A DNA stretch of 41,094 bases from the IMG/VR virus record IMGVR_UViG_2872152978_000011. One strand, 5' to 3'. Of this stretch, positions 40,604-41,094 are shown in pieces. Position 1 is the first letter of the stretch. Each line of letters begins with the position of its first letter. The DNA is from a virus. Taxonomy: Duplodnaviria > Heunggongvirae > Uroviricota > Caudoviricetes. Under the pieces are notes generated by a model. That model ran no database searches and was not told where the DNA came from. It was given only the letters and a program-made list of their open reading frames with translations. Both the position numbers and the translations under genes were made by a program.

Positions 40604-40953
40604 CTGTACTCCAATGACTAGTCTAAAAACTAGTATTAAGACTATCACTTATTTAAGTGATACTGGTTGTCTGGAGATTCAGGGGCCAGTCTACCCGTGG
40701 CATGAACTGCCAACTTCACACAGAAGAAACAATCAGATGAGTTTGCCCTTACCTCAGAATTAACGAGCAGAATTGCCGGAGTAACAAAAAAGCGATAGAT
40801 TACGCGCGGGTGCCTTTCGGCTGATGGTCGGAGGGAATACCTGAAGGCCAGATGTGGAAAGGCCCCGGAAAACATTTTTGTTTAACCGAGGCCCTAACCG
40901 TCTACCCTAAGCAAGTGATAGGTTAGCGCCTCCCCGAAAAAGGAGCAAGCGCT

Positions 40954-41094
40954 ATGTCGCAAAAATCGCTTACGGCCATCACGTTCTGCGTGACGGCAAT
41001 CCTCATCATCTGGATGCTGCACGGTTCGCTGTGCGAAATACGGATGAGCTTCTGGGGAGCGGAGTTTGCGGCGTTCTTACAGTGTAAGCAGTAA
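40954..41094 (+). CDS. Hok/Gef-family type I toxin-like small membrane protein (46 aa)
   Basis: Not in the ORF track (under 60 aa). Translates as MSQKSLTAITFCVTAILIIWMLHGSLCEIRMSFWGAEFAAFLQCKQ*: a hydrophobic helix followed by a SLCE...AAFL.CK C-terminus as in HokA-type proteins; a GGAG lies 9 nt upstream of the ATG. Confidence 0.55.
   Translation: MSQKSLTAITFCVTAILIIWMLHGSLCEIRMSFWGAEFAAFLQCKQ

What the first reader, a model, noticed from the sequence alone, without database searches (positions are those of the whole stretch)
40700..41094. Unannotated hok-like type I toxin ORF at the right edge, downstream of the IS2-disrupted ogr
A 46-codon ORF (40954-41094) encodes a small hydrophobic peptide with the HokA-like C-terminal signature SLCE...AAFLxCK. 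It is too short for the ORF track. Hok loci normally include an overlapping mok frame and an antisense sok RNA immediately upstream, which would lie in 40700-40953 and beyond the window.
Basis: partly seen in the sequence, partly recalled or inferred. Interest (0 to 1): 0.4.

Follow-up and report, generated by a model that had tools for sequence, protein, structure and literature searches.

The report
Prophage-end hok/sok toxin-antitoxin locus
The small ORF at the right edge of the window is a real Hok-family membrane toxin gene with the RNA control region of a hok/sok addiction module. It sits at the end of a decayed P2-like prophage, and it is a common, already annotated and already catalogued element rather than something new.

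Summary
Confirmed and ordinary. The ORF at 40954-41094 encodes a 46-aa peptide that passes Pfam's Hok/Gef threshold. RefSeq annotates the same locus as "Hok/Gef family protein", next to ogr, in more than 1,100 complete E. coli genomes. The identical peptide is entry 72_1621 in a 2026 preprint cataloguing Hok; the text implies it tested toxic.

Upstream, 40773-40953 holds an R1/hokC-type leader:
- a weak hok promoter;
- a 5' tac element;
- ucb and dcb boxes;
- an antisense Sok-like gene, about 57 nt, at about 40856-40912 on the minus strand, with its promoter over the hok Shine-Dalgarno.

The 3' hairpin, the fbi element that pairs with tac, and the terminator lie 9-119 nt beyond the window edge. 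I read them from a locus identical over 40808-41094. Compensatory changes across 14 loci from several enterobacterial genera support both the closed fold (tac-fbi) and the open fold (tac-ucb).

- No mok frame exists in this allele or is conserved in this clade.
- The peptide is not a HokA orthologue (43% identity).

Expression in this genome and the integrity of the 3' end cannot be checked.

The parts
39168..39363 (+). Context: 5' part of ogr (Ogr/Delta zinc-finger late activator), cut by IS2. The last 5 bp, CCCGT at 39359-39363, are the left copy of the target duplication.
   Evidence: ORF list and sequence. The intact homologue is annotated ogr/Delta-like in L001.
39364..40693 (-). Context: IS2 insertion. 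The orfA and orfB transposase frames are on the minus strand.
   Evidence: 99.9% identity over the full length to elements annotated 'IS3-like element IS2 family transposase'. The ends TGGATTTG...CCAGTCTA are flanked by the 5-bp direct repeat CCCGT.
40694..40763 (+). Context: 3' remnant of ogr. It starts with the right copy of the target duplication (CCCGT, 40694-40698) and ends at TAA 40761-40763.
   Evidence: Alignment to intact ogr-hok loci.
40773..40801 (+). Predicted hok promoter: -35 TTGCCG (40773-40778), 17-nt spacer, -10 TAGATT (40796-40801).
   Evidence: Read from the sequence. The -10 (TAGATT, TAGAAT or TAGAGT) is the first block conserved among diverse loci and aligns with the TATAAT upstream of K-12 hokC. 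The generic promoter scan did not report it: it matches 8 of 12 positions and the scan needs 9.
40808..40822 (+). Inferred 5' end of the hok mRNA and the tac element, GGGUGCCUUUCGGCU. It pairs with fbi beyond the window in the full-length RNA, or with ucb after 3' trimming.
   Evidence: The Rfam hit starts here. MFE folds. GGGTGCCTT is present in 14 of 15 loci. Compensatory changes occur in both helices.
40858..40866 (+). ucb-like box AAAGGCCCC. It pairs with GAGGCC in the closed fold and with tac in the open fold.
   Evidence: Folds. In 4 of 14 sequences a G-C to A-U double change keeps the ucb-GAGGCC pair. Three pairs of the tac-ucb helix have changes on both sides.
40856..40912 (-). Predicted Sok-like antisense RNA, about 57 nt: a 5' single-stranded tail, then a hairpin (reverse complement of 40861-40893), then UUU.
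   Evidence: Fold energy -23.2 kcal/mol, z -2.7. It lies 42-98 nt upstream of the hok ATG; annotated K-12 sokC lies 49-107 nt upstream of hokC. The SokC 5' end aligns to window position ~40910. No transcript data are available.
40920..40948 (-). Predicted sok promoter on the minus strand: -35 TTGCTC (reverse complement of 40943-40948, overlapping the hok Shine-Dalgarno), 17-nt spacer, -10 TAACCT (reverse complement of 40920-40925).
   Evidence: AGGTTA is identical in 13 of 15 loci and is AGGATA in the other two. The assignment rests on positional homology to hokC/sokC. It is weak against the consensus and was not reported by the generic scan.
40888..40932 (+). Sok-target hairpin of the trimmed mRNA. 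GAGGC (40888-40892, the counterpart of the mok Shine-Dalgarno in R1 and hokC) pairs with GCCUC (40928-40932, the dcb-like box).
   Evidence: Fold of the trimmed RNA. The helix is kept in 14 loci. K-12 mokC has an ATG 9 nt after its GAGG; nothing corresponds to it here.
40852..40926 (+). 24-codon upstream ORF in the hok frame, ending 14 nt before the hok Shine-Dalgarno. It is probably not a functional mok equivalent.
   Evidence: Its ATG is absent in the Salmonella, Klebsiella and Citrobacter relatives, and its stop position varies among the E. coli and E. albertii relatives.
40940..40945 (+). hok Shine-Dalgarno AAGGAG, 8 nt before the ATG. In the closed fold it pairs with CUCC at 40930-40933.
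   Evidence: Sequence. Pairing probability is 0.93 in the full-length RNA.
40954..41094 (+). hok coding sequence, 46 codons plus TAA. The window ends at the stop codon.
   Evidence: Identical to RefSeq WP_000078916.1 'Hok/Gef family protein' in L001 and to catalogue entry 72_1621.

Best explanation
This is a type I toxin-antitoxin module of the hok/sok kind at the right end of a decayed P2-like (P88/Xuanwuvirus-type) prophage. The hok gene encodes a 46-aa inner-membrane toxin.

Shown by sequence, folding and comparison:
- The mRNA starts near 40808.
- In the full-length RNA the 5' tac element pairs with the 3' fbi element. In the same fold ucb holds GAGGCC, and the hok Shine-Dalgarno is paired to CUCC.
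- If the 3' end is removed back to the stable hairpin after the stop codon, tac pairs with ucb instead. GAGGC then forms the Sok-target hairpin with GCCUC.

Inferred from the R1 and hokC paradigm:
- The full-length RNA is inert and long-lived, and slow 3' trimming activates it.
- A short-lived antisense Sok RNA (about 57 nt, about 40912 to 40856 on the minus strand) pairs with the trimmed RNA and leads to RNase III cleavage.
- When Sok synthesis stops, through loss of the DNA or a transcription shut-off, Hok is made and depolarises the membrane.
- The likely roles are retention of the element or abortive defence against infection.

Unlike R1 and hokC, there is no mok leader ORF. How the hok Shine-Dalgarno becomes accessible is not resolved.
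For: - Toxin family. Pfam HOK_GEF is above threshold. PHROG 251 matches at E 1.3e-22. The residues the preprint reports as conserved in more than 80% of Hok peptides align here as C12, T14, L26, C27, E28 and E37.
- Toxicity. The identical peptide was cloned as LRP137/72_1621. Of 45 homologues tested, 42 were toxic, and the three non-toxic ones carry other ids.
- Leader. The Rfam hok-leader/sok model hits 40808-40967, E 1.4e-8.
- Closed fold. The full-length RNA folds at -160.7 kcal/mol, z -6.7, with nt 1-15 paired to GGUCGA-U-AAGGCACCC.
- Open fold. The trimmed RNA refolds to tac-ucb plus the GAGGC-GCCUC hairpin.
- Comparison. In 14 loci from E. coli, E. albertii, Salmonella, Citrobacter and Klebsiella, 93% and 91% of cells pair, against 32-53% when the partners are slid. 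Eleven and ten pairs have changes on both sides, including within tac-fbi, ucb-GAGGCC, tac-ucb and the 3' hairpin.
- Boundaries. Homology among loci in different genomic contexts starts at the -10 and weakens after fbi. A terminator hairpin with a U-run follows in 12 of 14 loci.
- Sok. Position and orientation match annotated K-12 sokC.
Against: - There is no transcript or expression evidence. Both promoters are weak against the consensus, and the generic scan reported neither.
- The Rfam score of 46 bits is below the curated 59, and nothing in the window reaches a gathering score.
- The fbi element, 3' hairpin and terminator are outside the window. I read them from a locus identical over 40808-41094. 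In this IS-rich genome the 3' end could be disrupted, as IS186 sits 20 bp after hokC in K-12.
- Ensemble folding leaves the hok Shine-Dalgarno mostly paired in most homologues even after trimming.
- The host element is a prophage remnant that probably cannot excise, so a stabilising role may be vestigial.
Confidence: 0.8

Rival explanations
1. The locus is a silent relic. The hok ORF and the leader are intact in sequence, but the toxin cannot be made. Either the mok-type leader ORF needed to open the hok Shine-Dalgarno is missing, or the unseen 3' end is disrupted. The locus then persists only as a passenger of a dead prophage.
For: - The mok-equivalent frame is closed by TGA at 40842 and TAA at 40908, and it has no ATG, GTG or TTG before 41031.
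- In R1, mok translation up to the hok Shine-Dalgarno is mandatory.
- The hok Shine-Dalgarno stays largely paired in predicted ensembles.
- The surrounding prophage is heavily decayed and IS-ridden.
- K-12 hokC has IS186 20 bp downstream.
Against: - Absence of a conserved mok is the rule for the whole clade, not a lesion of this allele.
- The peptide and every RNA element are nevertheless conserved with compensatory changes across several genera and contexts, which implies selection on a working module.
- The 40808-41094 stretch is identical to that of L001, and the locus occurs at 95-100% identity beside ogr in more than 1,100 E. coli genomes.
Confidence: 0.2
2. The module is active, but its role is phage-related rather than addiction. 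It might time or aid lysis and phage release, as reported for hokW-sokW of prophage Sp5, or abort infection by other phages that shut off host transcription.
For: - The clade sits in P2-like and Stx phage genomes and at prophage ends.
- hokW-sokW facilitates Sp5 release (abstract of PMC8621323).
Against: - HokW is a different, 51-aa peptide.
- The preprint found no enrichment of hok near defence systems (section heading, discussion).
- In this window the prophage is a remnant without most lytic genes, so any lysis role is moot here.
- Nothing computed here distinguishes the roles.
Confidence: 0.2
3. The ORF is a chance open frame and the resemblance to Hok is coincidental.
For: The peptide is very short and hydrophobic, and short ORFs are common.
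Against: - Pfam scores above threshold.
- 67 homologues are annotated Hok/Gef.
- The same gene is annotated in RefSeq.
- The flanking RNA architecture is conserved.
Confidence: 0.01

Closest known systems
Hok 60%-identity cluster 72, entry 72_1621 (Escalera-Maurer et al., bioRxiv 10.1101/2025.08.07.668861); RefSeq WP_000078916.1 'Hok/Gef family protein'
   Same: The 46-aa peptide is identical. The paper lists the cluster as high-abundance and cloned the peptide for toxicity testing.
   Different: Nothing differs at the protein level. The paper did not analyse mok, Sok or mRNA structure for its homologues. The RNA anatomy given here is therefore an addition, not a contradiction.
hok/sok of plasmid R1
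   Same: - Toxin family.
- tac-fbi closure of the full-length mRNA.
- The ucb and dcb alternative pairings.
- A protective 3' hairpin.
- An antisense RNA whose promoter overlaps the hok translation start region.
   Different: - Peptide identity is 33%.
- There is no mok ORF. GAGG, the R1 mok Shine-Dalgarno, is kept, but no start codon follows it.
- The setting is a chromosomal prophage rather than a plasmid.
hokC(gef)/mokC/sokC of E. coli K-12
   Same: The leader aligns position for position: -10, GGGTG-CTT tac, AGCCCCG ucb and GAGGCC. Sok position and length correspond.
   Different: - hokC has the annotated mokC frame starting 9 nt after GAGG; this locus has none.
- Peptide identity is 26%.
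- hokC has IS186 20 bp downstream.
HokA of E. coli K-12
   Same: It is the closest of the named chromosomal Hok peptides, at 43% identity. It shares MxQK, the SLCE motif and the C-terminal AAFLxCK.
   Different: It is not an orthologue. The NCBIfam HokA equivalog scores 34 bits against a cut-off of 89. The two fall in different 60% clusters, 72 and 93.
hokW-sokW of Stx prophage Sp5 (PMC8621323)
   Same: It is a prophage-borne hok/sok module. The PHROG family that holds this peptide is named after MokW.
   Different: HokW is 51 aa and 44% identical to Hok R1, so it belongs to a different clade. Stx phages carry a separate copy of the present 46-aa clade.

Membership tests
Hok/Gef toxin family (Pfam PF01848) | Match to the family HMM at or above the curated gathering score | tested here: met
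   29.9 bits against 22, E 4.1e-7, residues 7-44 on profile positions 5-42 of 42.
Hok/Gef toxin family (Pfam PF01848) | Peptide of about 45-55 aa with a hydrophobic N-terminal half and the conserved residues of the family logo (C16, T18, L30, C31, E32, E41 in Hok R1 numbering) | tested here: met
   46 aa. Aligned to Hok R1, the residues are C12, T14, L26, C27, E28 and E37. The conserved list comes from the preprint.
Hok/Gef toxin family (Pfam PF01848) | Toxic to the cell when expressed | not testable with these tools
   Literature only. The identical peptide 72_1621 was among 45 homologues tested; 42 were toxic, and the three non-toxic ones have other ids.
[quoted passage not shown] | Long-range 5' tac / 3' fbi pairing that closes the full-length mRNA | tested here: met
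   15 pairs with one bulge in the MFE fold, z -6.7. The helix is kept in 14 loci at 95% of cells, and 4 pairs have changes on both sides. Caveat: the 3' partner lies outside the window and was read from a locus identical over 40808-41094.
[quoted passage not shown] | Alternative pairing after 3' trimming: tac-ucb, with release of the Sok-target hairpin (SD-like GAGG with dcb) | tested here: met
   Fold of the trimmed RNA. The tac-ucb helix pairs in 94% of cells, with 3 pairs changed on both sides. The ucb-GAGGCC helix of the closed form shows a G-C to A-U covariation.
[quoted passage not shown] | Antisense Sok RNA gene in the leader, with its own promoter and terminator hairpin | tested here: inconclusive
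   - A conserved -10 (TAACCT), a 17-nt spacer and a -35 over the hok Shine-Dalgarno.
- A hairpin followed by UUU.
- Position matches annotated sokC.
- The generic promoter and terminator scan did not report it, and there is no transcript evidence.
[quoted passage not shown] | Overlapping mok leader ORF that starts after the GAGG and reads across the hok start | tested here: not met
   No ATG, GTG or TTG lies between the TAA at 40908 and 41031 in the only frame open across hok. Among 15 related loci, ORFs that cross the hok start occur in only six. They use six different start sites (-145, -130, -103, -38, -28 and, in L011, -104 with its stop overlapping the hok ATG). Single-base indels break any common frame.
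[quoted passage not shown] | 3' exonucleolytic activation, RNase III cleavage of the Sok duplex, post-segregational killing | not testable with these tools
   Requires experiments.
Rfam RF01794 (sok / hok leader) | Covariance-model score at or above the gathering score | tested here: not met
   46 bits against 59, although E is 1.4e-8 and all 157 model positions are matched. Nothing in the window reaches a gathering score. This marks a divergent relative of the seed sequences.
HokA orthologue (NCBIfam NF007290 equivalog) | Score at or above the curated cut-off | tested here: not met
   34 bits against 89. Identity to HokA is 43%.

The most novel reading that the evidence does not exclude
The whole 46-aa Hok clade (cluster 72) runs the R1-type RNA switch without any mok leader ORF. 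In that case Sok would control hok directly. One possibility is that Sok frees the CCUCC anti-Shine-Dalgarno, which then re-closes the hok ribosome-binding site. Another is that Sok acts through RNase III decay alone. The conserved GAGG would then be a structural relic of a former mok Shine-Dalgarno. This would be a natural, simplified variant of the textbook hok/mok/sok circuit.
Probability: 0.35. Interest if true: 0.3.

Novelty: already known. Interest (0 to 1): 0.15.

Why it matters
The practical value is correct annotation. The window ends inside a toxin-antitoxin module, so any gene call or deletion design here should treat about 40773 to 120 nt past the edge as one unit with genes on both strands.

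Biologically it is one more case of a hok/sok module at the end of a prophage, still intact where most of the prophage is gone. That fits addiction modules being hard to lose.

The one point of wider interest is the lack of a mok leader across this clade. If hok is still expressed, coupling to mok is not a universal part of hok regulation.

Tried and rejected
1. Generic sigma-70 promoter and terminator scan over the locus. It reported neither the hok nor the sok promoter. Both assignments rest on conservation and positional homology.
2. The 24-codon upstream ORF (40852-40926) as a mok substitute. Rejected as a conserved feature: its ATG is missing in the Salmonella, Klebsiella and Citrobacter relatives, and its stop moves among the others.
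3. A direct switch model, in which the CCUCC box is shared between GAGGC and the hok Shine-Dalgarno, so that trimming opens the site and Sok binding re-closes it.
   - It works in silico for the window allele when the RNA is cut to 332 nt or less: SD-CUCC pairing goes 0.93, then replaced, then 0.93.
   - It also works for L008 and L015.
   - It fails for most GCCUCUCC-type homologues and depends on the chosen 3' end. Left as inconclusive.
4. Locating the phage attachment core from a phage/lysogen/K-12 comparison. About 230 bp between hok and ihfA match neither K-12 nor the phage record, so no conclusion was drawn.
5. The genome-contig scan returned only 7 loci. Diversity was completed with exact-protein look-ups.
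6. A search for further hok copies in the window found none.

Full report
**Observation.** The ORF exists exactly as described: 40954-41094 on the + strand, ATG to TAA, 46 codons, MSQKSLTAITFCVTAILIIWMLHGSLCEIRMSFWGAEFAAFLQCKQ. AAGGAG at 40940-40945 lies 8 nt before the ATG. The peptide passes the curated Pfam threshold for Hok/Gef, at 29.9 bits against 22. It matches PHROG 251, 'MokW-like host killing', at E 1.3e-22. It is the only Hok-like frame in the window. Against NCBIfam it is nearest to the HokA model but far below its cut-off, 34 bits against 89. Using sequences from Table S2 of the Hok catalogue preprint, identity is 43% to HokA, 33% to Hok R1, 26% to HokC and 24% to HokB. The peptide is therefore a Hok-family member but not a HokA orthologue.

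**Public status.** The 445 bases at the right edge match 3,113 of 5,426 complete E. coli genomes. In 1,165 of them one place covers at least 80% of the query, that is, the ogr 3' end plus hok. There the gene is annotated 'Hok/Gef family protein' next to 'ogr/Delta-like zinc finger family protein'. In strain VG38-53E1 the match is 99.8% identical, the protein is WP_000078916.1, and ihfA and pheT follow on the other strand. The same arrangement occurs in P88-like phages (Xuanwuvirus, Peduoviridae), and a diverged copy occurs in Stx phages. A protein search found 67 relatives in Escherichia, Shigella, Salmonella and Klebsiella, nearly all 46 aa. Thirty-four plasmids also carry the clade. The exact peptide is entry 72_1621 of a 'high-abundance' 60%-identity cluster in Escalera-Maurer et al. 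(bioRxiv 10.1101/2025.08.07.668861). It was cloned as LRP137 for a toxicity assay. Forty-two of 45 homologues were toxic, and the three non-toxic ones have other identifiers. [quoted passage not shown]

**Context.**
- ogr is split by an IS2 copy at 39364-40693, 99.9% identical to annotated IS2.
- The IS2 is flanked by a 5-bp target duplication, CCCGT, at 39359-39363 and 40694-40698.
- The ogr remnant ends at 40763, ten bases before the proposed hok -35.
- The insertion is 80 bp upstream of the hok promoter and does not touch the module.
- The right ~7 kb of the window is a decayed P2-like prophage. It holds a tail-tube/mannitol-dehydrogenase chimeric frame, the sheath gene, a gpD fragment, IS1, a 367-aa cargo ORF without Pfam or PHROG hits, ogr::IS2 and hok.

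**RNA anatomy in the window.** The Rfam model RF01794, named sok, matches 40808-40967 on the + strand over its full length: E 1.4e-8, 46 bits, below the gathering score of 59. Its consensus runs from a GGGUGCUUGAG 5' end to an AUG, so it describes the sense-strand hok leader. Alignment of loci from unrelated contexts shows that homology begins at a -10 box (TAGATT, 40796-40801) and at GGGTGCCTT (40808-40816). With TTGCCG at 40773-40778 and a 17-nt spacer this makes a weak promoter that would start transcription near 40808.

**What lies beyond the window.** I read this from L001, which is identical to the window over 40808-41094.
- A GC-rich hairpin lies 9-32 nt after the stop codon.
- The sequence GGTCGATAAGGCACCC lies 50-65 nt after the stop. 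It is complementary to the 5' end.
- A hairpin with a U-run lies about 90-119 nt after the stop.

**Folding.** The RNA from the 5' end to fbi folds at -160.7 kcal/mol, z -6.7. Nucleotides 1-15 pair with the fbi region, AAAGGCCCC (ucb) pairs with GAGGCC, and the hok Shine-Dalgarno pairs with CUCC. Cut back to the 3' hairpin, the 5' end pairs instead with ucb, and GAGGC forms a long hairpin with GCCUC. These are the element-by-element equivalents of the closed full-length and open truncated hok mRNAs of plasmid R1, as summarised in PMC9841398.

**Comparative support.** I aligned fourteen loci from E. coli, E. albertii, Salmonella, Citrobacter, Klebsiella and a Stx phage, from 5' end to fbi.
- For the closed fold, 93% of cells pair, against 32-49% with partners slid. 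Eleven pairs have changes on both sides. These include four in tac-fbi, one G-C to A-U switch in ucb-GAGGCC in four sequences, and five in the 3' hairpin.
- For the open fold, 91% of cells pair, with three double-sided changes in tac-ucb.
- The sequences are related and few, so these counts are supportive rather than a formal test.
- One relative (L013) has lost the promoter and tac and looks decayed. Two genomes carry tandem pairs.

**Sok.** On the minus strand, TTGCTC (reverse complement of 40943-40948, over the hok Shine-Dalgarno), a 17-nt spacer and TAACCT (reverse complement of 40920-40925) would start an RNA near 40912. That RNA ends after a hairpin (reverse complement of 40861-40893) and UUU, giving about 57 nt with an unpaired 5' tail. 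AGGTTA is conserved in 13 of 15 loci and is AGGATA in the other two. In K-12 the annotated sokC lies 49-107 nt upstream of the hokC ATG and is 59 nt long. In a pairwise alignment its 5' end falls at window position ~40910. The generic scan reported neither the promoter nor the terminator, and no transcript evidence is available, so Sok remains a well-founded prediction.

**mok.**
- The only frame open across hok runs from 40911 to 41084. It has no ATG, GTG or TTG before 41031 and is closed upstream by TAA at 40908 and TGA at 40842.
- K-12 mokC starts at an ATG 9 nt after its GAGG. The homologous stretch here is CCCUAACCGUCUACC, with no start codon.
- Among 15 relatives, ORFs that cross the hok start occur in six loci. 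They use six different start sites. Single-base indels in the hairpin loop break any common frame.
- A 24-codon upstream ORF (40852-40926) is not conserved.
- A mok leader is therefore absent from this allele and not a conserved feature of the clade. The catalogue preprint did not analyse Mok.

**Mechanism and limits.** The most likely reading is an R1-type circuit: an inert full-length mRNA, slow 3' trimming, refolding, and then either Sok pairing and decay or, when Sok is gone, Hok synthesis and membrane damage. The folds and their conservation are shown. Trimming, RNase III cleavage, toxicity in situ and the biological role are inferred. How hok is translated without mok is open. A direct anti-Shine-Dalgarno switch works in silico for this allele and two others, but not generally. 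A silent-relic reading cannot be excluded. The 3' third of the module cannot be checked in this genome, and in K-12 an IS186 sits 20 bp after hokC.

**Verdict.** This is a real, correctly recognised, but already known element. Interest is low. The one modestly new point is the mok-less design of this clade.

Noticed in passing
window 37929-39032 (+), with IS1 at about 36939-37442: A 367-aa AT-rich ORF directly upstream of ogr has no Pfam or PHROG match. In E. coli VG38-53E1 the homologous position is the 3' end of a 3.1-kb CDS annotated 'MFS transporter'. Here an IS1 transposase frame lies just upstream, so this is probably the IS1-truncated tail of a large cargo gene in the gpD-ogr gap of P2-like prophages.
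   Followed up: partly
window 33030-33938 (-): A chimeric frame: the first ~44 residues match phage tail tube FII and the rest matches the mannitol dehydrogenase C-terminal domain. It probably marks the deletion junction that removed most of the prophage.
   Followed up: no
window 17722-27621: Three frames at 20567-22168, 23469-25061 and 26083-27621 match IS66-family transposases. A fourth 530-aa frame at 17722-19314 on the opposite strand was not scanned, but it is the same length as 23469-25061 and gives mirrored weak tblastn hits, so the two are probably inverted copies of one element. An IS4-type transposase lies at 29749-30759. This very IS-dense stretch suggests a Shigella-like or otherwise IS-expanded genome.
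   Followed up: no
L005, L006, L009 (genome contigs): Contigs labelled Planococcaceae MAG, Vagococcus sp. and Xanthomonas pisi carry this enterobacterial hok at 98%, 98% and 72% peptide identity. They are probably contaminating enterobacterial DNA in those assemblies.
   Followed up: no
L017 1501-2131 and L018 1501-2135 (Salmonella): Two complete copies of this hok module sit in tandem about 490 bp apart, each with its own tac and fbi.
   Followed up: partly
L013 about 1320-1500 (Salmonella, end of a lambdoid tail-fibre region): A copy of the module whose promoter and tac element are replaced by unrelated sequence, while ucb, the Sok region, hok and fbi remain. It is a naturally 5'-truncated allele.
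   Followed up: no
L011 1250-1360 (Citrobacter braakii): A 34-codon leader ORF from GTG at -104 ends in TGA overlapping the hok ATG (UGAUG), the classic termination-reinitiation arrangement. It is the only relative with this layout.
   Followed up: no
L001 3470-3700: About 230 bp between the hok module and the ihfA terminator are absent from K-12 and from the P88_4B11 phage record. Their origin, and the position of the attachment core, were not resolved.
   Followed up: partly
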